From a virus, in the IMG/VR virus record IMGVR_UViG_3300045120_000483, positions 40,882 to 104,881 of that record: a stretch of 64,000 nucleotides of DNA; one strand, 5' to 3'. The position numbers and the translations under genes are program-made. Position 1 is the first letter of the stretch. Each line of letters begins with the position of its first letter. The notes under the pieces were generated by a model. The model was given only the letters and a program-made list of their open reading frames with translations, ran no database searches and was not told where the DNA came from. Positions 41,133 to 53,383 of this stretch are shown in pieces.

Positions 41133-41211
41133 TTTCTACTCAGGTTCGAATCCTGACGTTCAAGGACAGTCTATAGGCGAACGAACACTTGCGGAGATCG
41201 GTCAGTAGAAA
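41133..41211 (+). ncRNA. circularly permuted tRNA-like RNA 1
   Basis: TTTCTAC/GTAGAAA terminal stem; T arm TCAGG-TTCGAAT-CCTGA first; then capped CGTTC/GAACG; weak D arm. Confidence 0.55.
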
Positions 41212-41830: not shown

Positions 41831-41848
41831 CAAAGTTTCCACCATTTC

Positions 41849-41923: not shown

Positions 41924-41953
41924 TAGAAAAAGGAAAAGTTCAGAAGTAGGCAA

Positions 41954-42023
41954 GGGGGCTAGCCTCCGGTCGGTACTCTAGACCGGTGACCAACACAAAT
42001 CGTTGGTCTGATAAATGGCCCTC
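41954..42023 (+). ncRNA. candidate three-way-junction RNA
   Basis: GGGGGCTA/TGGCCCTC enclosing CCGGTC/GACCGG and GACCAAC/GTTGGTC. Confidence 0.45.
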
Positions 42024-42031
42024 AAATTTAA

Positions 42032-42115
42032 GGTGGATGGGGTCCAAGGTGGACACACGGCTTTGAATACCGTCCCTCCGAAAGGATGAGAGTTCGATTC
42101 TTTCATCCACCGCCA
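42032..42115 (+). tRNA. tRNA-Ser(TGA)
   Basis: loop TTTGAAT, long variable arm, GCCA. Confidence 0.85.
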
Positions 42116-42117
42116 GT

Positions 42118-42233
42118 TTCTTCGAAGATCACTGTAGTAGGTGTGGGTTCATGTTCCTTCTAGACTATAAGGAGCTAGCCGTACTAACAGGTGTCTAGAC
42201 CGATGTGGGCGATAATGTTAACCTTTCGAAGAA
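42118..42233 (+). ncRNA. candidate pseudoknotted RNA
   Basis: TTCTTCGAAG/TTTCGAAGAA; loop CTAGAC complementary to GTCTAG. Confidence 0.45.
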
Positions 42234-42240
42234 TTCAATT

Positions 42241-42322
42241 GCAGATATGGTGAAATGGAAAACACACTACGCTTAGAACGTAGCGCGAAAGCTTGCGGGT
42301 TCAAGTCCTGCTATCTGCACCA
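42241..42322 (+). tRNA. tRNA-Leu(TAG)
   Basis: loop CTTAGAA, variable arm, ACCA. Confidence 0.9.
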
Positions 42323-42328
42323 TAAATA
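42321..42328 (+). promoter_or_regulatory. late promoter CATAAATA overlapping tRNA CCA end
   Basis: upstream of GAGG RBS of 42352. Confidence 0.6.
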
Positions 42329-42351
42329 CTAAAAAAACAGAGGAAAATGAA

Positions 42352-43197
42352 ATGAAAAAATTGAGAGAAATCCTGAATGAAAAATTTATTAAAGATATGT
42401 CCTCTGTGGAACATAAGAGACATCGACAATCTGAAGCTGAAGGGAGCCAGTGGCATCAGGATCACCCCGTAAGTCATGAAAATATAATCAATCATTTTAA
42501 TGCTGCCACTTCGGAGGAGCATCATAATGGGATGAGTTGGTATAAAGATGCTCATCATACGATGAAGGCTTTAGCTCATGACACCAAAACTCCCCATCAT
42601 CAGATGGCGGGTCTAATTTCAAATTATTCGCCCCAGACACATTGGTTTACAAATATCCATACTGCCGCAAAAGTTGCCCGGGAGAAGAAAGCTGTGGGCG
42701 GCCCCGGATCAGGAGTTTTTGCTTCAGGTCAACAAAAACATGCTGCACATAGGATGTTGCAGGGGGAACATTATAATAACGTTCTTGTTGGACATAAGGT
42801 GAGACATTTTGCTCATTTAATTGAGCATGGGGGCAATGAACATCCCGATCACCCCCATGTTGTGTTGGATCGTCATGCACATTCGGTGGCATCAGGAAGC
42901 CGTATTACTGATGCGGCATTTAGTCAAGCCGGACTCAAATCCAAGAAAAAATATGCTGATATGAGTAATGCCTATATAAAAGCGGCTCATCATCTATCGG
43001 AAATTCACAAACAAACAATTCATCCTCATCAAGTTCAGGCTGTAACTTGGCTGGTACGTCAACGGTTGAATGCTCAAGAAGATAAAGGGCAGGCGAAAAA
43101 CAAAAGTAATAAGGCAAAAGATACATGGCACAAATATGCGGAGGAACATCATCCAAGTGTGATTGGTCAAGAGCCCGGAACAGGTTATGGCCATTGA
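42352..43197 (+). CDS. HhH-type DNA glycosylase-like (DUF7178-like) protein with capsid-targeting-like leader
   Basis: GMSWY..A..SPQTHW..N..GHKVRHF..LDRH..Y..AA..PHQVQAVTW; MKKLREILNE leader. Confidence 0.6.
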   Translation: MKKLREILNEKFIKDMSSVEHKRHRQSEAEGSQWHQDHPVSHENIINHFNAATSEEHHNGMSWYKDAHHTMKALAHDTKTPHHQMAGLISNYSPQTHWFTNIHTAAKVAREKKAVGGPGSGVFASGQQKHAAHRMLQGEHYNNVLVGHKVRHFAHLIEHGGNEHPDHPHVVLDRHAHSVASGSRITDAAFSQAGLKSKKKYADMSNAYIKAAHHLSEIHKQTIHPHQVQAVTWLVRQRLNAQEDKGQAKNKSNKAKDTWHKYAEEHHPSVIGQEPGTGYGH

Positions 43198-43206
43198 TTC
43201 AACTAA

Positions 43207-43282
43207 GCTTCACTAGCCCAGCGGTAGAGGCAGCAGATTTAAATCCTGTTAAGGCCGGGTCCGAATCCCGGGTGAAGCACCA
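43207..43282 (+). tRNA. tRNA-Leu(TAA), short variable loop
   Basis: loop TTTAAAT, 76 nt, ACCA. Confidence 0.8.
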
Positions 43283-43288
43283 TTTAAT

Positions 43289-43364
43289 GGCTCTTTAGAC
43301 AAACCGGCATAGTCGCTTCCCTCAAAAAGAAGAGTTCTGGATTCGAATTCCAGGAGAGCTACCA
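43289..43364 (+). tRNA. tRNA-Leu(CAA), short variable loop
   Basis: loop CTCAAAA, 76 nt, ACCA. Confidence 0.8.
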
Positions 43365-43373
43365 AAATATCTC

Positions 43374-43402
43374 TTGACATGTTCTGACACTTTGGTTATC
43401 AT
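43374..43402 (+). promoter_or_regulatory. sigma70-like promoter of second RNA block
   Basis: TTGACA-N17-TATCAT. Confidence 0.65.
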
Positions 43403-43410
43403 ATTGAAAG

Positions 43411-43552
43411 TGGATGGGAAGCGCGTTGTGTTTTCGTCTTTCAACAAAAGCGGTCCCGTCCATTCTTGTTCTTAATTGTGGAATACCTTGCTGTTCAAGG
43501 GCTTATGCAAGGGATAGACTTTGTAAGAAGGCGGTATTCCACAGTTAAGAAC
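43411..43552 (+). ncRNA. two long hairpin RNAs
   Basis: TGGATGGGA/TCCCGTCCA; 21-bp TGTTCTTAATTGTGGAATACC/GGTATTCCACAGTTAAGAACA. Confidence 0.5.
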
Positions 43553-43646
43553 ATGGTGTTCCTGGCTGGCTTAATCTAAGCTTCCCACAAGTCGCTTAGA
43601 ACGTTTTGTGGAACGTAAGGAAGGGTTCGAATCTCTTCGACACCAT
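43553..43646 (+). ncRNA. tRNA-like RNA with elongated arm bearing a Leu(TAG)-type loop
   Basis: TGGTGTT/GACACCA, GCTT/AAGC, CCACAAG.CG-CTTAGAA-CG.TTTGTGG, GTTCGAATC T loop. Confidence 0.6.
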
Positions 43647-43725
43647 CGTAATAAGAACGGGATGATATCTTAACCCGAATAACGGCGAATCCTTCGGAAA
43701 AGTCGTTTCGTTCTTTCTTTTTAAT

Positions 43726-43801
43726 GCCCCTTTAGCTCAGTGACCAGAGCGGTTGTTTTACATACAACGGGTCGGGAGTTTGATTCTCTCAAGGGGTACC
43801 A
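43726..43801 (+). tRNA. tRNA-Val(TAC)
   Basis: loop TTTACAT, ACCA. Confidence 0.9.
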
Positions 43802-43806
43802 GAGAT

Positions 43807-44000
43807 AACGGTGTTGTCGCACCGTAGCCCGGTTTGACGGGCTTAAAGGATAGCAGTAGCGATACTGTCAAAGTAAGGAAGCTTACAGCCTTACACCGGA
43901 GCAATCCGGCCCATTCAAGCAGGTCCGGTTCACCCGAAAGGGCAGTCATACTAGACTGTGGCGGGAAGCAGGACGATGAGGAGACAAGACCCGAAAGGGA
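43807..44000 (+). ncRNA. candidate GNRA-rich structured RNA
   Basis: eight hairpins with GCGA, GCAA and two GAAA tetraloops; TTTGAC/GTCAAA pseudoknot. Confidence 0.55.
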
Positions 44001-44009
44001 TAAGAATAT

Positions 44010-44083
44010 AGCCTAGTGCCGGAATGGTTACGGGACCGCCTGCAAAGCGGGAGACAGGAGTTCGATCCTCCTCTAGGCTTCCA
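44010..44083 (+). tRNA. tRNA-Cys(GCA)
   Basis: loop CTGCAAA, U73, CCA. Confidence 0.9.
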
Positions 44084-44195
44084 GCACACCGATGAAGATA
44101 TTCGTAGCGTTGTGGACCCGTGGCGAACGAATAAAAATAAGGGAGCAAATTTCAGTACGCGACTGACCCACAAGTTAACGGTTTTCCAATAGAAT

Positions 44196-44270
44196 GCATC
44201 TTTAGCTCAGAGGAAGAGTGTCGCATCGACATTGCGAAGGTCCGGATATCGTAATTCCGAAGATGTACCA
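44196..44270 (+). tRNA. tRNA-Val(GAC)
   Basis: loop TCGACAT (C33), T loop ATCGTAA, ACCA. Confidence 0.75.
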
Positions 44271-44291
44271 CCTTAAACAAAAGGAAACATT

Positions 44292-44441
44292 ATGTTTGAA
44301 GCTCTGTTGATGACAATTTTAATTGCTGTTGTTATTGTGGTTATAGCGGAATGGTTTTCTCCGGATGCCCGTCTTACATGGATTGTTCGTTTGTTGGTTT
44401 TTGTTTGGTTGATTTACAAGCTTCTTCCGTTTTTGAAGTAA
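44292..44441 (+). CDS. 49-aa two-TM membrane protein
   Basis: AAGGA RBS; MFEALLMTILIAVVIVVIAEWFSPDARLTWIVRLLVFVWLIYKLLPFLK. Confidence 0.6.
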   Translation: MFEALLMTILIAVVIVVIAEWFSPDARLTWIVRLLVFVWLIYKLLPFLK

Positions 44442-44448
44442 AGTTAAT

Positions 44449-44527
44449 GTGGGAGTAGGGGAGTCTGGCCGTCCCCTCTTGCCTTGGAAGCAAGAAATCG
44501 TGAGTTCGAATCTCACTTCCCGCACCA
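44449..44527 (+). tRNA. tRNA-Pro(TGG)
   Basis: loop CTTGGAA, ACCA. Confidence 0.85.
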
Positions 44528-44535
44528 TTTAGGAG

Positions 44536-44730
44536 TTGATAATGTTTTGGAAAAGCCTTACACCCCCTGAAGCCGTTGAGTATTATAATCTTCTACAAAA
44601 GATTAGCATTTGGTCGGGCCACTGTGAGACTTGTCGAAAGGCAAAGTCTCCGGTACAAGAAGACTTGCGACCAACGGACCAAGAGTTTATGCGTTGGAAT
44701 GAACTGTTCTGGAAATTTTGGACAAAATAA
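44536..44730 (+). CDS. hypothetical protein
   Basis: AGGAG RBS. Confidence 0.5.
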   Translation: MIMFWKSLTPPEAVEYYNLLQKISIWSGHCETCRKAKSPVQEDLRPTDQEFMRWNELFWKFWTK

Positions 44731-44770
44731 AACATAATTCTAGCTAATCGGAGAAGCGACGTTAGTTTAT

Positions 44771-44847
44771 GGGGGTATAGTTCAAAGGTAGAATAGGCGC
44801 TTGATAGGCGTTTGATCGTTCGGGTTCGATTCCCCGTATCCCTACCA
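44771..44847 (+). tRNA. tRNA-Ile(GAT)
   Basis: loop TTGATAG, ACCA. Confidence 0.85.
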
Positions 44848-44866
44848 GTTTTTTAAAAGCAATCGT

Positions 44867-45199
44867 CTATTTAGCGTCGTCTGGCGACGTGGAATAATCG
44901 TCTGGAGACAACTCCACAAGAGGTTGGGGTGGCGCTTCGGGAGTGTGCTCTGTCTGAATCCTAGCCATTGCCAGGGCATCGGAAGTTGATCGTAAAGTAA
45001 AAGCTAGCTTAGCTAGGTCTTTGTTATATTTACTAATACCGGCCTCAATGCCTTTGTCAATTTCTTTCTGGATGTCAACCCTGTCTTCTTGACAGTTTTT
45101 ATAGTATAAATCGTCACACTCCCGGTCCCTTCGGGCTAGTTCTCTATCATGCAGGATAATTGCTTCTAGGGTGGCGACGATCATTTGTCGAAAGTTCAT
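44867..45199 (-). CDS. hypothetical late protein
   Basis: GATAAATA and GAGG upstream. Confidence 0.55.
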   Translation of the reverse strand: MNFRQMIVATLEAIILHDRELARRDRECDDLYYKNCQEDRVDIQKEIDKGIEAGISKYNKDLAKLAFTLRSTSDALAMARIQTEHTPEAPPQPLVELSPDDYSTSPDDAK

Positions 45200-45231
45200 T
45201 TAATTTCCCTCTCTAAATCAATATTTATCGC

Positions 45232-45260
45232 TTGACATTCCTTATAATATAAAGTATCAT
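45232..45260 (+). promoter_or_regulatory. sigma70-like promoter (near-leaderless HD gene)
   Basis: TTGACA-N17-TATCAT. Confidence 0.65.
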
Positions 45261-45267
45261 TATTGGA

Positions 45268-45825
45268 ATGAATAGAGATTTTACCAGAATCAACGATGCC
45301 TGTATGTACGCCGGTCTGGCCCATGCATCCATTGGGCAGGTACGTAAGTACAGTAAAGAGTCCTATATCGTTCATCCCATGCGGGTTTGCCGCCTTCTTG
45401 ATGAAGTGGGGGAAACCGATGATGTTCTTATTGGCGCTCTTCTTCATGATGTGGTAGAAGATACGCCGATTACGTTGGCGGAAATTCAGGCCAAATTTGG
45501 GATGGAAATTGCCAAATATGTGGAAGGGATGACAGATGTCTCTAAACCTGAGGATGGTAACAGAGCCGTTCGTAAAACGATTGATAGGGAGCATTCTTGG
45601 GAAGCGTGTGGAGAATCCCAGACGATCAAGTGTGCGGACCTTATCGACAACACAGAGGACATTACTTCCCACGATAAAGATTTCTCTCAGGTTTACCTCC
45701 GGGAAAAGAGACTACTTCTTCCGGGTCTGACCAAAGCCAATCCAGCCCTTATTCAAAAGGCCTGGGAGACATTGGAAGCCGCTGAAATCAAAATTTTTGG
45801 AATTATTCAAGGAGAAAGAACATGA
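45268..45825 (+). CDS. HD-domain small alarmone hydrolase ((p)ppGpp hydrolase, Mesh1/SpoT-like)
   Basis: AH..GQVRKY..YIVHP..ALLHDVVEDT..IKCADLIDN. Confidence 0.9.
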   Translation: MNRDFTRINDACMYAGLAHASIGQVRKYSKESYIVHPMRVCRLLDEVGETDDVLIGALLHDVVEDTPITLAEIQAKFGMEIAKYVEGMTDVSKPEDGNRAVRKTIDREHSWEACGESQTIKCADLIDNTEDITSHDKDFSQVYLREKRLLLPGLTKANPALIQKAWETLEAAEIKIFGIIQGERT

Positions 45826-46052
45826 AGGTTGACGTGAAGGTGACTAGTGCGGGGAACGGCTCCCGGGCATATCCTAAAATTAGAAGGAGTATTGCCTACC
45901 AATACTTGGTTTGGTTCTCCACCCCTACAGTGGGGATAGTTGTATCCCAAGGTACGGGAACACAACTTCCCGGAAAATATTCAAATGATTGGGCCCCGGA
46001 GTGTTTTGAAGAGTGGACGGGAGAGGTCGTTTTAACGCTGACACAGGAGTAA
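45822..46052 (+). CDS. hypothetical protein
   Basis: coupled ORF; resembles 46056 and 53375 small proteins. Confidence 0.55.
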   Translation: MKVDVKVTSAGNGSRAYPKIRRSIAYQYLVWFSTPTVGIVVSQGTGTQLPGKYSNDWAPECFEEWTGEVVLTLTQE

Positions 46053-46055
46053 ATC

Positions 46056-46307
46056 ATGACATTGAGAGTCAAAGCTACAGAGGCCGAAGCTAAGAAAGCT
46101 GAGTTAGCGTTTCCCTGCCTGATGAGGTCCAAGAGCGATGGTTGGATTATGTTAGTTACGGGGGTAGAGAATAATATTGTTAGTGGTATGGTTGTTTCCG
46201 ATCCTAATAAGTATTGGTCTTCTCCGATCTTGAGATATTCGAATCGAATGACCGCTATTTCGACTCTTGAACCCTGGGTTGGTAAGGTAGAGTTTATTTC
46301 AGAGTAA
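46056..46307 (+). CDS. hypothetical protein
   Basis: AGGAG RBS. Confidence 0.55.
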   Translation: MTLRVKATEAEAKKAELAFPCLMRSKSDGWIMLVTGVENNIVSGMVVSDPNKYWSSPILRYSNRMTAISTLEPWVGKVEFISE

Positions 46308-46311
46308 GCCG

Positions 46312-46422
46312 GATGGTGGACAGTGAGGATGCATTCCCTGAGTGGTCAAAAGGGCCGGTCTTTTAAACCGATGCGAAAGCTACGTGGGTTCGAATCCCCC
46401 TGCATCCTCACTGTCCATTATC
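46312..46422 (+). tRNA. atypical tRNA-Lys(TTT)-like RNA (class II body, 22-bp extended acceptor helix, no CCA)
   Basis: core 46327..46408; loop CTTTTAA; GC-GAAA-GC variable arm. Confidence 0.7.
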
Positions 46423-47250
46423 ATATAATTTATAGAGGTCTTTGATTTTAAGACCGGTTTTGTTTTCTACATAACTGAAAACCTCCTGGAGGTCCGGTAG
46501 ATAAAGAATTTGGATGGGTTCTGTTACTCCTGAAAGTTTAAAGTCATCAACGGGAGATTTGAAGCCTTTGATTTCGATTAATTTTCCGTTTACCCGAAAG
46601 TCTGGGTAAAAGTTATGTTCTCTTTGAGTTATAGGATTGAAGTATAGATAAGGGGCCTTGTTTCTAGTAATGGAAATTTGGTGTTCTGTGCAAAAAATAT
46701 AGTAAGCTATTTCGTATGTGGAATTACAAAAAAATCCTTGATAGTATCCCTGTTTTCCTCTCCCCGCCCGGTGTCGAAAGCATCCAGGTTTTCCTTTTTT
46801 AGTTATGCTGATATTCTTCGCAGAAAGCGCCTTATTGCACTTAAGAGAACATGTCTTTAAACGTCGGTGTGTATATGGAAGAGGTACCTTGCATTCTTGA
46901 CATATTGAGGGAGATTGCAAATAAAGCTTTTTTGTGATTAAAGATTTTTGTTGTCCTGATATTCTAGAAATTTCCGAAAGACGTTTTTTAGTTTCTGATG
47001 AATGTTGCCACCCGCTTTCTTCTCTCTTTTTCATATTAGCTTTAGCTCCACAAGATTTAGAACAATACCGATATAAGCGACTTTTGTAGGAAATAGGATT
47101 CTGACAAAATTCACAGATTTTTGGGTTTAAAGCGTATTTTTGTTGACTACGCTCAGAAAGCCTGATACCATGGCAAGTAGGAGAACAAATTTTACTTCGC
47201 GGGTCTTGAGGGGTAAAAGGGGCTGAACAAACAAGACAAGAAATTGTCAT
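46408..47250 (-). mobile_element. PD-(D/E)XK homing endonuclease with Zn-ribbon repeats
   Basis: three CxxC..CS..C repeats; STYE..FYPDF..LIEIKG; AT-rich; in tRNA cluster. Confidence 0.8.
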
Positions 47251-47310
47251 TTCTAGAATTAACTCCGGAGTTGATAGGTTACAACTCTATTTATCTTCCA
47301 AAATATAGAT

Positions 47311-47387
47311 GGATCAATGGCTAGACTGGCAATGCAACGGACTCTTAATCCGTCCCCATGGGGGTTCGATTCCCCCTTGATCCTCCA
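47311..47387 (+). tRNA. tRNA-Lys(CTT)
   Basis: loop CTCTTAA, TCCA. Confidence 0.85.
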
Positions 47388-47394
47388 AAATTAT

Positions 47395-47458
47395 GCGGAG
47401 TTCCGATCTGGAAGTAACAAGAACTAATAGGATTTATCCTGATTAGTCCTCCGCACCA
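47395..47458 (+). ncRNA. ACCA-ended mini tRNA-like RNA
   Basis: GCGGAG/CTCCGC-ACCA with two internal hairpins and no anticodon loop. Confidence 0.55.
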
Positions 47459-47463
47459 AGTTT

Positions 47464-47539
47464 ACCCGTAGATGCTGCTAGTTGTGGCAGAATGATTGTC
47501 AATCATTTGAGTGGAGGGCAGAACTCCATACGGGTGCCA
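47464..47539 (+). tRNA. tRNA-Asp(GTC)
   Basis: loop TTGTCAA, G73, atypical T loop GCAGAAC. Confidence 0.75.
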
Positions 47540-47544
47540 TTTAA

Positions 47545-47601
47545 GGGGTCGGGTATATTGGTACCAGATAAGATGCGGTAAAAGTCCGTCTCACCCCACC
47601 A
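47545..47601 (+). ncRNA. anticodon-armless mini tRNA-like RNA
   Basis: GGGGT/ACCCC-ACCA; D-like GGTA-TATTGG-TACC; T-like GCGG-TAAAAGT-CCGT. Confidence 0.6.
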
Positions 47602-47606
47602 AGTCA

Positions 47607-47675
47607 GGAAGAAACATCGGTGCAAATCCGGTACAGATAACGGTTTCTGTTCGTCCAGTAGACTAGGACGCTTCC
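47607..47675 (+). ncRNA. circularly permuted tRNA-like RNA 2
   Basis: GGAAG-var-T arm-capped acceptor ACAGA/TCTGT-D arm GTCC/GGAC-CTTCC. Confidence 0.75.
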
Positions 47676-47768
47676 GCTCCTACCTGGGTATAGCTTTCCC
47701 CTAAGAGTGGTTTCTGGGGGTAAAGGGTGAGCGTCCCATAAAAAACGGAACCCACTAATTTTGAGCTA

Positions 47769-47842
47769 GGGGGAGATACGGTTCGATTCCGATACTAGTC
47801 GCGCGTGAAAGCTAGTTGGACCTAATGGATATGGTCGCCCCC
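47769..47842 (+). ncRNA. circularly permuted tRNA-like RNA 3
   Basis: GGGGG-var-CGG TTCGATT CCG-capped ACTAGT/GCTAGT-D arm GACC TAATGGATAT GGTC-CCCCC. Confidence 0.75.
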
Positions 47843-47846
47843 GTTA

Positions 47847-47937
47847 CCCGTCTAGAACTGGTGTTCAGAGGAGCCTTATAAACTCTTTGCTCCGGACTGG
47901 AGTCTTTGGCGCGGATCGTAACCGTGAGGCGGGACCA
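47847..47937 (+). ncRNA. tRNA-like RNA with 14-nt anticodon-position loop
   Basis: CCCGTCT/AGGCGGG-ACCA; GAAC/GTTC; GGAGC/GCTCC; T arm CGCGG-ATCGTAA-CCGTG. Confidence 0.6.
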
Positions 47938-47953
47938 ATTTAAGGAGTCTGTT

Positions 47954-48121
47954 ATGGAAGATGAAGAGGAAATATTCTACCGGGTTAAGTGTGTTCATTG
48001 CGGTCGTTTCATGTCGTCCAAAGACGCCCGTTATCACTTTATTCCGGATAGTCATTTTGGACCGGAAGAGGGATGGTGGGAGCATCGGGGATACTGTAAT
48101 GAAAATATATCTAAAGTTTGA
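47954..48121 (+). CDS. small Zn-finger protein
   Basis: AAGGAG RBS; CVHCGRF. Confidence 0.5.
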   Translation: MEDEEEIFYRVKCVHCGRFMSSKDARYHFIPDSHFGPEEGWWEHRGYCNENISKV

Positions 48122-48491
48122 TGAGAATGTCTTTCCCCCGAAGCTGACGCTTTCTGTCAAAGGTGCTCCCCATTCCCGTCAACACCGGGCAATTTTTAAG
48201 ACTTATCGAAATGCAATCTGGGAAGCTTGGGAGAAGGCAGGTTATAATCATCAGATTGATTATCCCATTGACCTGGACGTAATTTTTTGTGATCCGGCAT
48301 CACCAGATTTAGACCATACCCTAATGGCGCTCTATTCTGCTATTGATGGCAAGTCCACGCTGAAGGGTAATAAGAATGACAAGAGTCCAAGGCACCCGGC
48401 TCTGATGACGGATGATGGATATATTTCAGAAATTCGAATGCGAAACTTCTGGCCTAACGAAGCTACCAGAGCCGACAACCGAATCTATTAA
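48099..48491 (+). CDS. RusA-like resolvase/nuclease
   Basis: PDLDHTLMALYSAIDG...MTDDGYISE. Confidence 0.6.
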   Translation: MKIYLKFDENVFPPKLTLSVKGAPHSRQHRAIFKTYRNAIWEAWEKAGYNHQIDYPIDLDVIFCDPASPDLDHTLMALYSAIDGKSTLKGNKNDKSPRHPALMTDDGYISEIRMRNFWPNEATRADNRIY

Positions 48492-48505
48492 CAGGGAGAG
48501 AGATT

Positions 48506-48820
48506 ATGCAAGCAGAGATCAAGACCAAGTGGGCGAACGCTCTTCGTTCCGGAAAGTATGCCCAGGGCACCGGGGGCCTTAAGAAAGATAATGCCTTTTG
48601 TTGTTTGGGAGTCCTTTGTGATATTATTAATCCCGATGGTTGGGAGGATAGTACCATACCATCCCAAAGATTTACTTATGGAGGAGAAAGTTCTTATTGT
48701 TCCTTACCCGAAAGCCTAAAGACAGAGCTTGGGTTTAAAGCTACTCTGAGGTTCATTGAAATGAATGATCAACAAGGACGATCTTTCGACTATATTGCAG
48801 ATTATGTGGAGAACCTATGA
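48506..48820 (+). CDS. hypothetical protein, CCLGV/MND paralog family
   Basis: KW..ALRSGKYAQG..FCCLGVLC..MND..SF..IAD. Confidence 0.8.
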   Translation: MQAEIKTKWANALRSGKYAQGTGGLKKDNAFCCLGVLCDIINPDGWEDSTIPSQRFTYGGESSYCSLPESLKTELGFKATLRFIEMNDQQGRSFDYIADYVENL

Positions 48821-49005
48821 CCGTCCTGGAGCAATTTATAGAAACTTTTGGGGAAGCTTGTGATATGGATTCGCCGGACAGACTGTTTGTCTTCAAATCA
48901 ATTCTTCTTGAGTTTGCCACCTTGGCTATAAATGATAAGGACTTTCAAGAAGAAGTGCTTTCCGAAGCAAAGAAGGTCAATGAAATTTTAGCTAAAATGA
49001 CATAA
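48817..49005 (+). CDS. hypothetical protein
   Basis: coupled ORF. Confidence 0.5.
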   Translation: MTVLEQFIETFGEACDMDSPDRLFVFKSILLEFATLAINDKDFQEEVLSEAKKVNEILAKMT

Positions 49006-49081
49006 GCCTACGTAATTCAATGGATAGAAATCATGCCTTCGAAGCATGAAGTTGCGGGTCCGAATCCTGCCGTAGGTTCCA
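49006..49081 (+). tRNA. tRNA-Arg(TCG)
   Basis: loop CTTCGAA, TCCA. Confidence 0.85.
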
Positions 49082-49100
49082 CCTTAAAAAAGGATATATT

Positions 49101-49448
49101 ATGAAGCAACATAGTTTTCGTTATATTCTGCTTGAGCTTTTTGATGGAAATAATGTTTATTGGGATTATGGGTCGCCGCTCATTCTGAGAAAAGATGAAA
49201 CTTTTACATTTTTTGCGGCTTATTCTGCCAAAGATTTTCCGGAGTTTGAGGACCGACTAGCCATCAATTCTATGATACTTCCTAAAAAAGTAGTCTGGAA
49301 ATGGGATGATCTAGGTTCTAAAAAAGAGGCGGCCGGTACTTTCTCCTTGAGAGAGAAGCTTCCAGATTTTGCGCGCAGACTATCTGTCAAAGGTGTTAAT
49401 GATCCAACAGCCCTTAAAGCTGAAGGTCGGGTCCTGACCAAAGACTAA
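49101..49448 (+). CDS. hypothetical protein
   Basis: AAGGA RBS. Confidence 0.6.
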   Translation: MKQHSFRYILLELFDGNNVYWDYGSPLILRKDETFTFFAAYSAKDFPEFEDRLAINSMILPKKVVWKWDDLGSKKEAAGTFSLREKLPDFARRLSVKGVNDPTALKAEGRVLTKD

Positions 49449-49474
49449 ATTCACTTGTAGTCATACAACACTAT

Positions 49475-49939
49475 TTACTTGCATTCGTCAAAAATCTGAA
49501 ATGCCACAATTTGATCTGCCATCATGTAGCTGACTTTAGGCGTCAGGGGTCGTCTAGTGTCGATGAATGCCTGGACGATCTCCGGATAGAATCTTCGAAT
49601 TAGCATATCAGTTAGTTCGGGTTCCGGAACACTCCCTCTAGGGGTCTGGGTAGATGCCAAATGAAAACCAAAGCTGGCCCGGGGAGTCACACAGACTTGT
49701 TCCTTGGGAAGCATCAGAACAAGGGTACAGGCAGAGACACACCAGCCATCGATTTTGACCGGGGCATGAGAGGCCAGAAGGCGTTTATACCATTTGTTAT
49801 ATTCATCGACTTCGCCACCCCAATCATCTGCAATGGTGAAGTAGGTCTGACCGGAAGAGATAGAGGAAGTAGCAGGTTGGGCAAAACAGGTGGAGATTGT
49901 CAGAAAAAGAGCAAAAAAAGTCGAAAGAAATCTTGACAT
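49475..49939 (-). CDS. secreted ClpP/crotonase-like protein
   Basis: signal peptide; DWGGEV, IDGWCVSACTL, FGFH; GCTAAATA upstream. Confidence 0.65.
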   Translation of the reverse strand: MSRFLSTFFALFLTISTCFAQPATSSISSGQTYFTIADDWGGEVDEYNKWYKRLLASHAPVKIDGWCVSACTLVLMLPKEQVCVTPRASFGFHLASTQTPRGSVPEPELTDMLIRRFYPEIVQAFIDTRRPLTPKVSYMMADQIVAFQIFDECK

Positions 49940-50080
49940 GGGGCCTCTCTCTTGATAAGATACTAGGCATATTTAGCAAATTAGGAATTAGCCCGGAAGT
50001 AAGGCAATTCCTGATACCGAAGAAGGGGACTAACGTATTCCTCTTTTTCACCCCAATTTTCTGTGAAAAGGAACTTTATT

Positions 50081-50428
50081 ATGTCAGAGGTAGAGAAAGT
50101 CGTTCTGTCCCCCGAACAAATTCTGAATAGGGCAGCCGACCTGATTGATAAGAATGGTTTGGCCAAGGCAAGCTTTTGTACGGCGGACTTAGGAAACGAT
50201 TGGACGGAACAGGATTGTTTCTGTATAGCGGGGGCTATTGCTTTTGCTTCTGGTTATTCTGGTTCGCCCCGGTCTCCAATAAAATTACATAAGGCTTATA
50301 GTATTCCCCTTGAGAAGGAGTTTAGAGACTCTACTGAGGCCTTTGAATGGAATGATGACCCCAAAACCACCAAAAAAATGGTAGTCAATTGTTTGAGAGA
50401 TATGGCAAAGAAGGAGACGAAATCATGA
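50081..50428 (+). CDS. hypothetical protein (DUF6197-like, CIAGA/WND)
   Basis: L.RAADLI.KNG..C.CIAGAI..WND; promoter at 49933. Confidence 0.75.
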   Translation: MSEVEKVVLSPEQILNRAADLIDKNGLAKASFCTADLGNDWTEQDCFCIAGAIAFASGYSGSPRSPIKLHKAYSIPLEKEFRDSTEAFEWNDDPKTTKKMVVNCLRDMAKKETKS

Positions 50429-50748
50429 GCACTCTGAAGGATGTCTATCTAAAAGCGGCGGAATTGATTGAGAAGAATGGCCTCTACACGGCCGGGGGAT
50501 ATGCCAATAAACCTCTTTATTGTTGTAAAGAAAATGATTGTGTTTGTATAGCCGGGGCAGTTGTGATTGCTAAGGGGTTGTTGCTTGGTAAAGATGAATT
50601 CGATAATTATGCTAAAGAAGCAACAAAACCTTTGTTTTGTTATTTTGACCCGGATGGTCAATATGATAAACTGTTTGATTGGAATGACAGTCAAGGTACC
50701 AAGGAAGCAGCTATAGCAATCCTGAAAGAGATTGCCGAAACACTGTGA
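50425..50748 (+). CDS. tandem paralog of 50081 protein
   Basis: KAAELIEKNG..CIAGAV..WND. Confidence 0.75.
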   Translation: MSTLKDVYLKAAELIEKNGLYTAGGYANKPLYCCKENDCVCIAGAVVIAKGLLLGKDEFDNYAKEATKPLFCYFDPDGQYDKLFDWNDSQGTKEAAIAILKEIAETL

Positions 50749-50910
50749 GTTTTAGTCCACATGAAGCATTTGCCGCATGGTGGAACGCTCATTCCCATGA
50801 GGATCGACAAAGGTTAGTAACTGATAATGTACATATTGCTCTTGGAACGTGGGAGAGGATCGAAGGCCGGGATGTTTATATACGACAAATAGGTCAAAGT
50901 TACAGAGTTT

Positions 50911-50964
50911 GCCCGATCAGTATATTTTCGGAGCCATTAATTGGTGGTCCCGAATCGGGCACCA
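50911..50964 (+). ncRNA. ACCA-ended mini tRNA-like RNA
   Basis: 7-bp GCCCGAT/ATCGGGC-ACCA plus one long hairpin. Confidence 0.5.
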
Positions 50965-50970
50965 GTTCAA

Positions 50971-51044
50971 GCGGGAGTAGTTCAATGACAGAACATTGCT
51001 TTGCCAAGGCAAATACGGGGGTTTGATTCCCCCTTTCCGCTCCA
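50971..51044 (+). tRNA. tRNA-Gly(GCC)
   Basis: GCGGGAG, loop TTGCCAA, TCCA. Confidence 0.9.
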
Positions 51045-51050
51045 GTTTAT

Positions 51051-51137
51051 GGAAATGTCAACTAGCGGGGAGCTAGCACTGTTTGGAAAACAGTTGAGAC
51101 CGAAAGGTTGAGGGATCGTTTCCCTGAGTTTCCGCCA
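51051..51137 (+). tRNA. tRNA-Ser(GGA)
   Basis: loop TTGGAAA, variable arm, GCCA. Confidence 0.8.
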
Positions 51138-51146
51138 TTTTAAGTA

Positions 51147-51222
51147 GGGCCTGTAGTGATAGAAGGTAGCATTCCGCACTTGCAATGCGGGGGACACGGG
51201 GCAGTACCGTGCTGGTCCACCA
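51147..51222 (+). tRNA. tRNA-Ala(TGC), second divergent copy
   Basis: G3:U70, loop CTTGCAA, T loop GCAGTAC. Confidence 0.8.
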
Positions 51223-51248
51223 TTTAACATAATGAAAGGAAATACATC

Positions 51249-51716
51249 ATGGAAGCGTCAGAGGTTTTGAAGATTGTTGCTAACGGACTGGCCTCTCAGG
51301 GGGGCCCGGCTTATGAAAGTGGAGCGTGTCTTTATCGGGCTTCGGGAGGTCGAAAGTGTGCGGCCGGATGGATCATTACCGATGAAGAGATTATGAGGGG
51401 CGTTCGGAGTATGAATTTATCTAGCTTGAAACATGAAGGAACCCTTCCAAAGAGTTGTGAGGAACATTTTAGTCTATTAGAATTATTGCAAGAAGTTCAT
51501 GATAGTTGTGCTTTGAATTATTCATATGTTTCAGTAACAAAACCCGAACCGGATCAATTGGCTATGTGGAAGAATGTCCATGGACCATGCGGTATTGCAA
51601 CCAAACTGAGAAGGGTTGCCCGGGAAAATGATCTTGATCCGGAGATTGTGACTGAAGCGTTCAAAAATTATGGAGGGGTCACGGCCGATTCCGATGATGC
51701 TAGAAATAGCGAATAA
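51249..51716 (+). CDS. hypothetical protein
   Basis: L..QG.PA...CLYR..GRKCAAG...LQEVHD. Confidence 0.75.
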   Translation: MEASEVLKIVANGLASQGGPAYESGACLYRASGGRKCAAGWIITDEEIMRGVRSMNLSSLKHEGTLPKSCEEHFSLLELLQEVHDSCALNYSYVSVTKPEPDQLAMWKNVHGPCGIATKLRRVARENDLDPEIVTEAFKNYGGVTADSDDARNSE

Positions 51717-51727
51717 AACCTCCGCCA
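51672..51727 (+). ncRNA. NCCA-ended mini RNA (family A, copy 2)
   Basis: GGAGGGGT..CGGCCG..CCG..hairpin..AAA.CCTCC-GCCA, like 41302. Confidence 0.55.
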
Positions 51728-51736
51728 AATTTTAAT

Positions 51737-51811
51737 GACTTGGTAGCTCAGTGACAGAGCGGGAGTCCGTTAAACTCTTGGTCGGGGGTTTGATTCCCTC
51801 CCTTGTCTCCA
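51737..51811 (+). tRNA. atypical tRNA-Asn(GTT)
   Basis: loop CCGTTAA (C33), two U-U mismatches in acceptor, U73. Confidence 0.6.
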
Positions 51812-51825
51812 AATTAAAAATTTAT

Positions 51826-51906
51826 TCCCACGAAGGCGAAGCAAGGTGCATTCGCGTCCGCTGTTAACGGAAGATTAGGCAGGTTCGATTCCTGCGGTGG
51901 GAGCCA
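51826..51906 (+). tRNA. tRNA-Asn(GTT)
   Basis: TCCCAC/GTGGGA-GCCA, loop CTGTTAA. Confidence 0.85.
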
Positions 51907-51912
51907 ATTTTT

Positions 51913-51987
51913 GGGGTATTCGTCTAGCGGTCAGGATGCTGCTTTCTCAATGCAGTGACAGGGATTCAACTTCCCTATACCCTACCA
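51913..51987 (+). tRNA. tRNA-Glu(CTC)
   Basis: loop TTCTCAA, ACCA. Confidence 0.85.
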
Positions 51988-51993
51988 GTTCAT

Positions 51994-52070
51994 ACTCTAG
52001 TAGCTCAGTGGAATAGAGCGTCACCCTGCGAAGGTGAGGGTCGGAAGTTCGAATCTTCCTTAGAGTGCCA
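51994..52070 (+). tRNA. tRNA-Arg(GCG)
   Basis: loop CTGCGAA, GCCA. Confidence 0.85.
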
Positions 52071-52076
52071 TAGAAA

Positions 52077-52098
52077 AAGGGAGCCGTTAAGCTCCCTT
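52077..52098. terminator. hairpin terminator between convergent units
   Basis: AAGGGAGC-CGTTAA-GCTCCCTT with A-run. Confidence 0.55.
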
Positions 52099-52122
52099 CC
52101 CCAACTCTTATTGAAAAGGTTA

Positions 52123-52314
52123 TTAACCTTTTACAGATACGTCCAAAGCGTCGGCCGCGTCATGAAGCTTGGTTGTCAGTTCGACAACTGCGGCTTTGTC
52201 ACCGCCTGCTGCGGCGATCTGGTCGGCAAGGTCCTTGAACTTTACGACGGCAAGACCGACTTCGGTTACCATACGGTCAACTTCAGTAGATAGGGCATCG
52301 AATTCTACGCTCAT
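52123..52314 (-). CDS. small Ala-rich helical late protein
   Basis: AAGGA RBS; GATAAATA upstream. Confidence 0.6.
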   Translation of the reverse strand: MSVEFDALSTEVDRMVTEVGLAVVKFKDLADQIAAAGGDKAAVVELTTKLHDAADALDVSVKG

Positions 52315-52389
52315 ATTTTATATTCCTTCTTTTGTTTGTTGTTGCAACAATAATAACGTCATGTGTACTATTTATCTTTCAAATTTCTT

Positions 52390-52464
52390 GGGGAATTAGC
52401 ATAACGGCTAGTGCATTCGGCTCTGACCCGAAAGGTGGGGGATCATTCCCCTCATTCCCTTCCA
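52390..52464 (+). tRNA. tRNA-Gln(CTG)
   Basis: loop CTCTGAC, atypical T loop, TCCA. Confidence 0.8.
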
Positions 52465-52472
52465 TTTTCTTC

Positions 52473-52501
52473 TTGACAACCCCTCTTTCATTCAATATAA
52501 T
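52473..52501 (+). promoter_or_regulatory. consensus sigma70 promoter
   Basis: TTGACA-N17-TATAAT. Confidence 0.85.
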
Positions 52502-52540
52502 GTGAAAATTGAACATGACAACAAAAAGGATATTTTCGTC

Positions 52541-52765
52541 ATGAATGACCGTCCGCAACTTAGTATAAAGCCCCGTAATTGGCCCGAAGCGGTATCTATG
52601 GGTAAGGAAAAAAGTTCCAAGTGTACCAAGCCTTATCGGAATACCGATGGGGGCAAGCTGGGACGTAAGCAGGCCAATTTGAGTCGCCGCCGCAACGACC
52701 ATGCCGCGACTATTAAGGCCGCCCGTGATCCTCAGGCATATAAGACACCGGGGAGCATGAAGTAG
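52541..52765 (+). CDS. small basic protein
   Basis: AAGGA RBS; ends YKTPGSMK. Confidence 0.55.
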   Translation: MNDRPQLSIKPRNWPEAVSMGKEKSSKCTKPYRNTDGGKLGRKQANLSRRRNDHAATIKAARDPQAYKTPGSMK

Positions 52766-53184
52766 ATGATGTCTCCCTATGAGATGAAACATCTTCATGA
52801 TTTTCGAATTTCCTGGTTCCGGGTTCTTGTGAATGGGACTAATGAAATTCTTCTGAATCATATGAAACTTCGGGAACCTACCGCTGAAATGGCGGAGTTC
52901 AATTTTCGAAGAGAATATCCGAAAGTTGATGATTATGAACTGGTGGAAATATGAGATATGTAGCCCTTACAAAATGGACCTTTTCTAAAAAGGTCATATG
53001 GCGACAATATATTTCCTTTCATGGTGGGTATACGGAGTATACCTGGATATTCTTGGATCGTTATAAGGAATATAGGGGAGAGTCTTTTCATATTAATGCA
53101 GAGGTTTATGTATCGGGAAGTATTACCCCCGATATTGGTCCGTGGTATGATGCGTTGAAGAGACATCCTTTCACCGTGTTTTAA
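52766..53184 (+). CDS. two coupled small hypothetical ORFs (52766..52954, 52951..53184)
   Basis: ATGA coupling. Confidence 0.45.
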
Positions 53185-53328
53185 TTTAAATGGAGGAACA
53201 ACAAATGGACGTAAAGACCTACTTGTTGCAAGACCGACAATGGCCCCGGGAGTTGCGTATCGCCCATGCTCAATTTCAGTTGAAGAAGGTTACTGTTCCG
53301 GAGGAATTTGATTTCTGGAAGGCCGTTC

Positions 53329-53383
53329 TGGAGGCAAACGAATCATGAAATCACTTGGTGGAGACAAACGAATCATGAAATCA
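53329..53383 (+). repeat. 30-bp-period tandem duplication of RBS/start region
   Basis: TGGAG(G/A)CAAACGAATCATGAAATCA twice. Confidence 0.8.

What the first reader, a model, noticed from the sequence alone, without database searches (positions are those of the whole stretch)
47607..47842. Circularly permuted tRNA-like RNAs opened at the anticodon (two here, a third at 41133-41211)
Seen in sequence: 47607-47675 reads GGAAG (anticodon-stem 3' strand), AAAC (variable), ATCGG-TGCAAAT-CCGGT (T arm), ACAGA-loop-TCTGT (acceptor capped by a loop), TC, GTCC-AGTAGACTA-GGAC (D arm), G, CTTCC (anticodon-stem 5' strand). 47769-47842 has the same order with a canonical TTCGATT T loop and TAATGGAT D loop; 41133-41211 is a weaker third copy. 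The sequences differ but the topology is the same. Known: this is the topology of the tRNA module of bacterial YrlA Y RNAs and of permuted tRNA genes in some algae and archaea. These copies lack the long Ro60-binding stem, have no CCA in the capped acceptor, and no TROVE/Rsr gene is in the window. Inference: they form a family of phage elbow-mimic or pre-cleaved-tRNA mimics that may decoy tRNA-targeting defences (anticodon nucleases, tRNA-modifying toxins) or be substrates for RNA ligation/circularisation.
Basis: partly seen in the sequence, partly recalled or inferred. Interest (0 to 1): 0.9.

Follow-up and report, generated by a model that had tools for sequence, protein, structure and literature searches.

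The report
Sealed back-to-front tRNA look-alikes in phage
Two small RNA genes in the tRNA cluster of an uncultured T4-like phage are tRNA bodies written in rotated order, sealed at the amino-acid end and lacking an anticodon loop, so they most likely act as non-decoding tRNA mimics; this design is known from bacterial Y RNAs but here has no docking stem and no Ro protein gene.

Summary
Two of the three elements are confirmed: d (47607-47675) and e (47769-47842). Each is a self-closed cloverleaf in the order anticodon-stem 3' strand, variable region, T arm, loop-capped acceptor, D arm, anticodon-stem 5' strand, with tRNA junction lengths.

- **Re-permutation test:** ARAGORN calls both as tRNAs at default settings. 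A scan of all possible break pairs finds only these two stand-alone calls in the window, none on the minus strand, and 0.2 per 128 kb in shuffles.
- **Independent model:** a covariance model built only from other phages' permuted units finds both at exactly these borders (19.8 and 17.0 bits).
- **Third copy (41133-41211):** not supported as a permuted tRNA. It has a real T arm and a closing stem only.

They are not YrlA family members (Rfam RF02553 gives no hit there). They have no basal docking stem. The 59%-complete record holds no TROVE, DUF2828, RtcB, Rnl1/2 or CCA-adding enzyme gene. No close relative of this phage was found, so orthologous covariation is untestable.

Similar sealed permuted units recur in unrelated phage tRNA arrays, but there they sit on flanking stems. 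This scan has noted such units before in at least 84 other genomes.

Best reading: expressed, non-decoding tRNA-body mimics. Their function as decoys is inferred, not shown.

The parts
47607..47675 (+). Unit d, a sealed permuted tRNA-like cloverleaf (69 nt). Segments: anticodon-stem 3' strand 47607-47611; variable 47612-47615; T arm 47616-47632 (loop TGCAAAT); acceptor 3' strand 47633-47639; cap ACGG 47640-47643; acceptor 5' strand 47644-47650; TC 47651-47652; D arm 47653-47669; G 47670; anticodon-stem 5' strand 47671-47675.
   Evidence: The MFE fold is the cloverleaf. ARAGORN calls the re-permuted sequence a tRNA. R2 scores 19.8 bits, E 2.4e-4 over the 16-kb array, with exact borders. tRNA tertiary-pair partners are kept: U8/A14, G15/C48, T54/A58, G53-C61 (read from the sequence). 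A T.G wobble in the T stem fits the plus-strand RNA only.
47769..47842 (+). Unit e, a sealed permuted tRNA-like cloverleaf (74 nt). Segments: GGGGG 47769-47773; AG 47774-47775; T arm 47776-47793 (stem with bulged A, loop TTCGATT); acceptor 3' strand ACTAGT 47794-47799; cap 47800-47810; acceptor 5' strand GCTAGT 47811-47816; TG 47817-47818; D arm 47819-47836 (loop TAATGGATAT); G 47837; CCCCC 47838-47842.
   Evidence: ARAGORN calls the re-permuted sequence a tRNA. R2 scores 17.0 bits, E 0.0064 over the whole window, with exact borders. The cloverleaf is 3.4 kcal/mol above the MFE, as for a typical tRNA here.
41133..41211 (+). The 'third copy': a 7-8 bp closing stem, a canonical T arm (TCAGG-TTCGAAT-CCTGA), a 5-bp hairpin with a 17-nt loop, and no convincing D arm. 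It fills a tRNA-sized slot between tRNA-Tyr and tRNA-Ala.
   Evidence: Not called as a permuted tRNA at any break point. R2 matches it only as a straddle with tRNA-Ala. z = -0.7.
47395..47601 (+). Upstream neighbours, packed with 5-7 nt spacers: a 47395-47458 (three-way junction ending ACCA); b 47464-47539 (tRNA-Asp GTC with odd T and D loops, ending GCCA); c 47545-47601 (acceptor plus D-like and T-like arms, no anticodon arm, ending ACCA). Unit d starts 5 nt after c's CCA.
   Evidence: Sequence and folds. None is found by ARAGORN or Rfam.
47676..47768 (+). A 93-nt spacer between d and e, with no recognised fold. Its first bases G-CTCCTAC-C would complete a canonical anticodon loop (Arg CCU) if they were joined to the 5' end of d.
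   Evidence: z = +0.9, so not unusually stable. ARAGORN builds tRNA-Arg(CCU) from 47607-47684 joined end to start. This may be coincidence.
47311..47387 (+). tRNA-Lys(CTT), the canonical tRNA that heads this run of units. A sigma-70-like promoter match lies at 47143-47171.
   Evidence: the promoter is a consensus match only.

Best explanation
d and e are small, non-decoding RNA genes derived from tRNAs. Each folds into a tRNA body whose acceptor end is closed by a short loop and whose chain ends lie at the bottom of an intact 5-bp anticodon stem that has no anticodon loop.

**Likely production (inferred).** They are transcribed with the tRNA array on the plus strand and set free when their tRNA-like neighbours are processed.

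**What follows from the fold.**
- They have no 3' CCA end and no anticodon, so they can be neither charged nor decode.
- They are also not attackable by enzymes that act on those two sites.
- They still present the acceptor/T-arm stack and the D/T-loop elbow, which many tRNA-binding proteins recognise.

**Likely action (inferred).** They occupy one or more tRNA-recognising proteins, as a decoy or sponge or as a partner RNA. They would be bare versions of the tRNA-like module of YrlA Y RNAs.

Shown here: tRNA ancestry, topology, strand, intact helices, and placement in tRNA-sized slots. Inferred: transcription, release and protein binding.
For: **tRNA-derived and matched halves**
- ARAGORN calls the re-permuted d and e as tRNAs.
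- They are the only stand-alone calls in 128 kb, against 0.2 expected.
- Unrelated halves are compatible only 2.3% of the time.

**Same architecture as units in other phages**
- Models built from other phages (R1, R2) recover d and e with exact borders.

**Helices look maintained**
- d has 19 of 19 core pairs plus 6 of 7 acceptor pairs.
- No tRNA in the window is a recent parent. Best half identities are 0.68-0.76, and for d the two halves match different tRNAs; for e several tRNAs tie.

**Placement and sealing**
- Both lie on the tRNA strand. d starts 5 nt after a CCA end, the same spacing as between the tRNAs.
- The caps hold no CCA (sequence).

**Recurrence**
- About 20 stand-alone permuted units were found on the tRNA strand in 1.3 Mb of other phage arrays, against about 4 expected.
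- Several have 2-4 nt caps like d, for example L081:3128-3194 and L120:19285-19357.
- In the two related units L034:18072-18140 and L081:2850-2927, the T and acceptor stems differ through paired changes.

**Precedent**
- The YrlA tRNA-like domain has this topology and is recognised by tRNA enzymes (PMC4201824).
Against: - No relative of this phage was found, so there is no orthologous conservation or covariation for d or e themselves.
- There are no expression data.
- e has a flawed T stem and no thermodynamic signal (z = -0.5).
- The T loop of d has G where tRNAs have U55, and its D loop lacks GG, so its elbow may be non-canonical.
- No partner protein was identified.
- The comparable units in other phages sit on basal stems that d and e lack, so they may not work the same way.
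Confidence: 0.5

Rival explanations
1. Rearrangement debris. Tandem duplication or recombination among array tRNA genes left the inner halves (3' half, spacer, 5' half) of a duplicated tRNA. The units are young pseudogenes without function. Homing-endonuclease activity nearby would favour such rearrangements.
For: - An HNH-like endonuclease gene lies next to the region (46408-47250, minus strand). Its homologues sit in many phage tRNA arrays.
- The region 47388-47945 is crowded with other odd tRNA-like units.
- e is imperfect.
- Any two adjacent similar tRNAs already give straddling 'permuted' calls.
Against: - It needs two exact deletions at the anticodon-stem borders, twice over.
- The cap of d is 4 nt with no CCA or spacer remnant.
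- No parent tRNA is present in the window, yet the helices are almost perfect.
- The same sealed design, with tight caps, recurs in unrelated phages far above the chance rate.
Confidence: 0.25
2. Precursors of a working or two-piece tRNA. RNase P and 3' processing would open the cap, as in M. smegmatis YrlA and two-piece tmRNA. For d, the 3' flank CTCCTAC would supply an anticodon loop, so that joining the ends would give tRNA-Arg(CCU), an anticodon absent from the array.
For: [quoted passage not shown]
- ARAGORN builds a canonical tRNA-Arg(CCU) from 47607-47684 joined end to start.
- The phage itself carries a permuted tmRNA gene.
- Another phage contig holds a complete tRNA-Phe(GAA) permuted at positions 26/27 with an encoded CCA (L024:14021-14106).
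Against: - There is no CCA in either cap.
- The cap of d is only 4 nt, which leaves no free leader.
- e has no usable loop in either flank (read from the sequence).
- No RtcB, Rnl1, Rnl2 or CCA-adding enzyme gene is in the record.
- Bacteria have no known tRNA splicing endonuclease (established knowledge).
- A 7-nt stretch with U33 and a purine at 37 is expected by chance about once in ten.
Confidence: 0.12
3. Y-RNA-like partners of a Ro60-like ring protein encoded in the missing 41% of the genome, as other reports of this scan propose for permuted tRNA mimics mounted on 'handles'.
For: - The record is only 59% complete.
- Comparable units in other phages sit on flanking helices.
- Earlier reports of this scan place such units next to Ro60-shaped protein genes (unchecked AI notes).
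Against: - d and e have no basal helix. The flanks of d belong to its neighbours, and the flanks of e form only 3 pairs with each other.
- The handle motifs seen elsewhere are absent from the array (ACAGCAA, GCTTATTTC).
- YrlA RF02553 gives no hit at d or e.
- No TROVE or DUF2828 gene is in the record.
Confidence: 0.1
4. Chance folds in an ordinary spacer.
For: A loose stem descriptor finds about 150 cloverleaves per 128 kb at two mismatches.
Against: - Two stand-alone ARAGORN calls lie 94 nt apart on the tRNA strand, against 0.2 expected per 128 kb.
- An independent model hits both with exact borders.
Confidence: 0.03

Closest known systems
YrlA Y RNAs of bacteria and mycobacteriophages (Rfam RF02553; Chen et al. 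2014, PMC4201824)
   Same: The order of elements matches the YrlA tRNA-like domain: variable region, T arm, loop-closed acceptor-like stem, D arm, closed by an anticodon-stem-like helix. Conserved tRNA tertiary-pair positions are kept. Both are non-decoding.
   Different: d and e have no Ro60-binding stem, no GNCGAAN0-1G motif in a basal helix, and no neighbouring Rsr/TROVE gene. They are 69-74 nt against a 114-position model, and RF02553 gives no hit at d or e. They lie inside a tRNA operon of a T4-like phage.
Permuted tRNA mimics mounted on a conserved 'handle' in phage tRNA arrays
   Same: A sealed acceptor, often with a tight cap; permuted order; position on the tRNA strand of phage arrays; absence from Rfam at gathering score.
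   Different: Those units are clamped by complementary flanks of 8-27 pairs. Some carry a full anticodon arm (L034:18072 region TCT, L081:2850 region GGT). d and e are bare and share none of the handle motifs.
Circularly permuted tRNA genes of Cyanidioschyzon merolae, some green algae and Thermofilum (recalled from established literature)
   Same: The 3' half is encoded upstream of the 5' half, and the acceptor strands are joined by a short intervening sequence.
   Different: Those genes encode complete tRNAs. They are matured through a bulge-helix-bulge motif, a circular intermediate, and RNase P and tRNase Z. Here there is no anticodon loop within the unit, no CCA or processing spacer in the cap, and the virus is bacterial, where no splicing endonuclease is known.
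Two-piece (permuted) tmRNA, Rfam RF04321; a copy lies in this window at 58027-58310
   Same: Permuted gene order of a tRNA-like domain: T arm and acceptor 3' strand lie before the acceptor 5' strand.
   Different: tmRNA has CCA after the acceptor 3' strand, a long intervening segment that is excised, and a coding part. d and e have none of these.
Phage T4 stable RNAs rnaC and rnaD (species 1 and 2)
   Same: Small RNAs of unknown function that abut the tRNA cluster of a T4-type phage beside a homing endonuclease gene. rnaC carries a T arm.
   Different: They are not permuted. No stand-alone permuted call is found in the T4 cluster.

Membership tests
YrlA (Rfam RF02553) | Match to the family covariance model at or above the gathering score (69 bits) | tested here: not met
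   The best hit in the whole record scores 17.5 bits and lies elsewhere, as a tRNA straddle. Nothing is found at d or e at E up to 10.
YrlA (Rfam RF02553) | tRNA-like domain in the order variable region, T arm, loop-closed acceptor-like stem, D arm | tested here: met
   Sequence parse, MFE fold of d, ARAGORN on re-permuted sequences. The topology is as described in PMC4201824.
YrlA (Rfam RF02553) | Basal Ro60-binding helix with the GNCGAAN0-1G motif | tested here: not met
   There is no helix between the flanks of d or e. The only nearby GNCGAA is inside the 'third' element at 41176, and it is not in a basal helix.
YrlA (Rfam RF02553) | Encoded next to an Rsr/Ro60 (TROVE) gene | tested here: not met
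   PF05731 gives no hit in the 104,881-bp record. The controls were positive in D. radiodurans and B. thetaiotaomicron. The record is 59% complete, so a distant gene cannot be excluded.
Handle-borne permuted tRNA mimics of phages (this scan) | Unit clamped by a helix formed by its 5' and 3' flanks, with conserved handle motifs | tested here: not met
   Pairs between flanks: e 3; d 11, but these use the acceptor strand of neighbour c. The values are 8-27 in L034, L081, L040, L093 and L120. The motifs ACAGCAA, GCTTATTTC and TGCTTA are absent near d and e.
Handle-borne permuted tRNA mimics of phages (this scan) | Neighbouring Ro60-shaped or DUF2828-type protein gene | tested here: not met
   PF05731 and PF11443 give no hit in the record. 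The flanking ORFs are small. The 434-aa ORF at 55636-56940 resembles a transporter N-terminus.
Circularly permuted tRNA gene (algal or archaeal type) | The two halves reconstitute a complete tRNA, including the anticodon loop | tested here: inconclusive
   Body and stems are complete. No loop lies within either unit. The 3' flank of d could supply CTCCTAC. The flanks of e cannot (sequence).
Circularly permuted tRNA gene (algal or archaeal type) | An intervening sequence between acceptor strands that allows RNase P and 3'-end processing, with CCA encoded or added | tested here: not met
   The caps are ACGG (4 nt) and an 11-nt loop, both without CCA (sequence). Actual processing is not testable here.
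Circularly permuted tRNA gene (algal or archaeal type) | Bulge-helix-bulge motif and a splicing endonuclease or ligase for end joining | tested here: not met
   No helix forms between the flanks. No RtcB, Rnl1 or Rnl2 gene is in the record. The host is unknown.
Canonical tRNA (Rfam RF00005) | Match to the tRNA model in native order | tested here: not met
   There is no tRNA hit in 47380-47960 at E up to 10. ARAGORN finds none there, even with relaxed settings.

The most novel reading that the evidence does not exclude
Bare, sealed, anticodon-less tRNA bodies are an independent class of phage small RNA. They would work without a Ro-type partner, for instance as uncleavable sponges for host tRNA-targeting defence nucleases or tRNA-end-modifying toxins. 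Alternatively, d would be the first circularly permuted tRNA gene (Arg CCU) of a bacterial virus, matured by end joining.
Probability: 0.15. Interest if true: 0.85.

Novelty: new variant of a known kind. Interest (0 to 1): 0.55.

Why it matters
Large phage tRNA arrays are now read mainly as a counter to host tRNA depletion and cleavage. RNAs that keep the tRNA shape but lack both sites that enzymes attack or use (the 3' end and the anticodon loop) would be a different tool from spare tRNAs. They would be inert look-alikes that can tie up tRNA-binding proteins.

This case strips the YrlA-type design down to the tRNA body alone, with no docking stem and no Ro gene in sight. If these units are functional, the tRNA-like module has a role of its own. 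That bears on the open question of what the tRNA-like domain of Y RNAs is for.

The claim is directly testable with small-RNA sequencing, RNase P assays and deletion mutants, once the phage or a relative is in culture.

Tried and rejected
- **Rfam, all families, at E up to 10 over 47380-47960:** only a meaningless IS009 match.
- **YrlA model on the whole record:** only weak tRNA straddles.
- **Search for relatives:**
  - blastn against GenBank phages found nothing.
  - Exact 19-30-mers of d, e and tRNA-Lys in IMG/VR gave no true relative. L001 is a chance T-arm match.
  - DNA polymerase as a query found no close relative in IMG/VR, and 39% identity at best to cyanomyoviruses.
  - The neighbouring 280-aa protein is a mobile HNH-like gene, so it is not a synteny marker.
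  - The neighbouring 176-aa ORF gave no hits.
- **blastn of the region against 126 fetched loci:** only T-arm matches.
- **A plain helix descriptor** proved too unspecific at 1-2 mismatches and was replaced by the ARAGORN re-permutation scan.
- **A MAFFT alignment of nine other-phage units** was structurally inconsistent. I therefore built a single-sequence model and iterated.
- **Group I intron or tandem intron-bearing tRNAs** as an explanation: no intron family was found in the comparison loci at gathering score, and the window's own gathering-score scan lists none.
- **Minus-strand reading as a normal tRNA:** rejected. The junction lengths fit only the plus-strand permuted order, and a T.G pair would become A.C.
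- **The 434-aa ORF at the end of the array as a Ro-like protein:** rejected.
- **T4 rnaC and rnaD as the same kind of RNA:** rejected.

Full report
**Setting**

The window is bases 40882-104881 of a 104,881-bp IMG/VR virus record, rated 59% complete. The phage is T4-like. Its DNA polymerase is 39% identical to those of cyanomyoviruses, and a gp32-like protein is present.

A tRNA array runs on the plus strand from about 40050 to 55260. It holds 26 ARAGORN calls plus a few more from Rfam, and most encode CCA. A permuted tmRNA gene lies at 58027-58310 (RF04321, 48.1 bits).

The finding sits in a 560-nt non-coding stretch, 47388-47945, between tRNA-Lys(CTT) and a small ORF that starts at 47955.

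**What the stretch holds**

Reading the sequence and folding the pieces shows a chain of tRNA-sized units separated by 5-7 nt:

| Unit | Coordinates | Description |
|---|---|---|
| a | 47395-47458 | three-way junction ending ACCA |
| b | 47464-47539 | complete tRNA-Asp(GTC) cloverleaf with unusual T and D loops, missed by both ARAGORN and Rfam |
| c | 47545-47601 | acceptor plus two arms, no anticodon arm, ending ACCA |
| d | 47607-47675 | permuted cloverleaf |
| (spacer) | 47676-47768 | 93 nt |
| e | 47769-47842 | permuted cloverleaf |
| (tail) | 47843-47945 | 103 nt, up to the Shine-Dalgarno sequence of the ORF |

The junction lengths are those of a tRNA read in rotated order: variable region 4 nt, T arm to acceptor 0, acceptor to D arm 2 (TC), D arm to anticodon stem 1.

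The acceptor of d is in fact 7 bp with one T.T mismatch, capped by ACGG. Several tertiary-pair partners of tRNA are in place: U8/A14, G15/C48, T54/A58, G53-C61. Position 55 is G, and the D loop lacks GG.

The cloverleaf of d is the minimum-free-energy structure (41% of the ensemble, z = -2.0).

e has the same order, with a canonical TTCGATT T loop and a GG-bearing D loop. Its T stem needs a bulged A. Its cloverleaf lies 3.4 kcal/mol above the MFE. That is no worse than the window's own tRNAs, whose median gap is 3.5 kcal/mol, with only 3 of 26 at the MFE.

**Is this more than chance?**

A bare helix descriptor is not enough. Perfect helices plus a T.C.A T-loop motif, as in d, are expected 0.08 times per 128 kb. 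Two mismatches plus the motif, as in e, are expected 3.8 times.

I therefore cut each candidate at the cap, joined the halves through an artificial anticodon loop, and asked ARAGORN at default settings.
- Both d and e are called as tRNAs.
- I extended this to every pair of positions 60-110 nt apart whose 5-nt ends can pair. The other calls are straddles across adjacent canonical tRNAs.
- The minus strand gives none. The two strands of the remaining 41 kb of the record give 0 and 1. Fifteen dinucleotide shuffles give 3 clusters in all.
- Pairing the 3' half of one window tRNA with the 5' half of another is accepted in 15 of 650 cases. The two halves of d, and of e, are therefore matched to each other.
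- Neither unit has a recent parent among the window's tRNAs. The best half identities are 0.68-0.76, the same range as between unrelated tRNAs; the two halves of d point to different tRNAs, and those of e tie across several.

**Independent models**

Orthologous covariation therefore cannot be tested.

Instead I scanned 126 loci (1.3 Mb, 849 tRNAs) that had been fetched through a mobile HNH-like gene common in phage tRNA arrays. The scan gave about 20 unique stand-alone permuted calls on the tRNA strand, against about 4 expected. Many are clean cloverleaves, several with 2-4-nt caps on a 7-bp acceptor. Examples:
- L034:20444-20516
- L034:18072-18140
- L081:2850-2927
- L081:3128-3194
- L040:3824-3904
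- L093:16842-16913 (minus strand)
- L031:9027-9093
- L120:19285-19357 (minus strand)

None of those checked is covered by any Rfam family at gathering score.

Model R1, built from L034:20444-20516 alone, gives d and e as the two best hits in the 581-nt region, full length. Model R2, built from 26 R1 hits in other phages with no window sequence, scores:
- d at 19.8 bits (E 2.4e-4 over the 16-kb array);
- e at 17.0 bits (E 0.0064 over the whole window);
- the next hit in the region at 2.3 bits.

Every hit with E below 0.2 is on the plus strand.

**The third copy**

41133-41211 has a canonical T arm and a 7-8-bp closing stem, and it fills a tRNA-sized slot. ARAGORN accepts no break point for it. 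R2 aligns only its T arm together with the 5' half of the next tRNA. I do not count it as a permuted tRNA.

**Comparison with known systems**

The topology is that of the tRNA-like domain of YrlA (PMC4201824). d and e are nevertheless not YrlA family members:
- RF02553 scores at most 17.5 bits in the record, and not at d or e.
- There is no basal helix or GNCGAAN0-1G motif in one.
- No TROVE gene is present.

Earlier reports of this scan describe sealed permuted tRNA mimics mounted on conserved "handles" next to Ro60-shaped proteins, in at least 84 other genomes. I tested that lead.
- The comparison units in L034, L081, L040, L093 and L120 are indeed clamped by complementary flanks of 8-27 pairs. 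In L034 and L081 the handle helix shows paired changes.
- Around e the flanks form 3 pairs with each other. The 5' flank of d is the acceptor strand of its neighbour c.
- The handle motifs are absent from the array.
- No DUF2828 gene is found.

d and e are therefore bare versions of the design.

They are also unlike algal and archaeal permuted tRNA genes. There is no anticodon loop inside the unit, no CCA or processing spacer in the cap, and no ligase gene in the record.

One oddity remains. The 8 nt after d (G-CTCCTAC) plus C47684 would, if joined to G47607, give a 6-bp anticodon stem and a canonical Arg(CCU) loop. e offers nothing similar, and the chance of such a loop is roughly one in ten.

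Phage T4's cluster has the same general layout: tRNAs, a homing endonuclease, and two stable RNAs of unknown role. It holds no permuted unit.

**Mechanism**

Shown:
- tRNA ancestry;
- rotated order;
- a sealed acceptor;
- an intact, open-ended anticodon stem;
- the plus-strand reading, since wobble pairs fit only that strand;
- tRNA-like spacing in the array.

Inferred:
- co-transcription with the array (a sigma-70-like match at 47143-47171, and no terminator-like site between 47388 and 47945, consensus scans only);
- release through processing of the neighbours;
- action through binding of proteins that read the tRNA body.

With neither a 3' end nor an anticodon loop, the RNAs can be neither used in translation nor attacked at the two usual target sites. 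This fits a decoy or partner role, but nothing here tests it.

The main rival is debris from array rearrangement. It is weakened by the exact borders, the remodelled 4-nt cap, the near-perfect helices without a parent, and the recurrence of the design in other phages.

**Verdict**

- The topological reading is right.
- The functional reading is open.
- This is a new variant (bare, handle-less, in a T4-like phage) of a known kind (YrlA-type tRNA mimics). It is related in design to a wider, uncatalogued set of phage RNAs that this scan has met repeatedly.

Noticed in passing
window 47464-47539 (+): A complete tRNA-Asp(GTC) cloverleaf: 7-bp acceptor, anticodon loop TTGTCAA, GCCA end. Its T loop (GGCAGAA) and D loop (no GG) are non-canonical. 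ARAGORN misses it even at relaxed settings, and Rfam tRNA misses it too. It is the only Asp tRNA seen in the array.
   Followed up: partly
window 47395-47458 and 47545-47601 (+): Two mini tRNA-like units with an acceptor stem and an encoded ACCA end but incomplete cloverleaves. Unit c has D-like and T-like arms and no anticodon arm. They are spaced like tRNA genes.
   Followed up: no
L024:14021-14106 (+): Another phage contig carries what reads as a complete tRNA-Phe(GAA) circularly permuted between positions 26 and 27. The order is: anticodon arm (TTCGT-TTGAAAC-ACGAA), variable region, T arm, acceptor 3' strand with A-CCA, a 5-nt spacer, acceptor 5' strand, D arm.
   Followed up: partly
L034:18030-18185 and 20400-20560; L081:2810-2975 and 3085-3235: Permuted tRNA units sit on a conserved handle (5' GAGCYNRTGCTTATTTCT ... 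3' AGCYRRGCC), with paired changes in the handle helix. Two of them also offer a canonical anticodon arm upstream (loops CTTCTAA and CTGGTAA) that competes with the closing stem.
   Followed up: partly
window 47677-47681 and 47942-47947: CUCCU, right after unit d, is complementary to the Shine-Dalgarno AAGGAG of the ORF at 47955. The MFE fold of 47676-47950 pairs the two.
   Followed up: no
window 41176-41183: GGCGAACG inside the 'third' element matches the YrlA Ro-binding motif GNCGAAN0-1G. It lies in a hairpin, not in a basal helix. Such a short motif is expected often by chance.
   Followed up: no
window 46408-47250 (-): A 280-aa Cys-rich protein with no Pfam match. It has relatives next to tRNA arrays in more than 100 phage contigs, including Lak phages. 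It is probably a mobile endonuclease gene, like segB in T4's tRNA cluster.
   Followed up: partly
window 40733-40904 (+): Two adjacent non-canonical tRNA-like genes, seen by ARAGORN only at relaxed settings. Their anticodon stems are mutually complementary, which gives a strong straddling hit to the permuted model (30.5 bits with R1).
   Followed up: no
window 55636-56940 (+): A 434-aa ORF at the end of the array. Its first ~90 residues resemble urea-proton symporter DUR3 (E 9e-5 against PDB sequences). No Pfam family matches.
   Followed up: no
window 58027-58310 (+): A permuted (two-piece) tmRNA gene in a T4-like phage. The ARAGORN tag peptide ends ...GELALAA.
   Followed up: no
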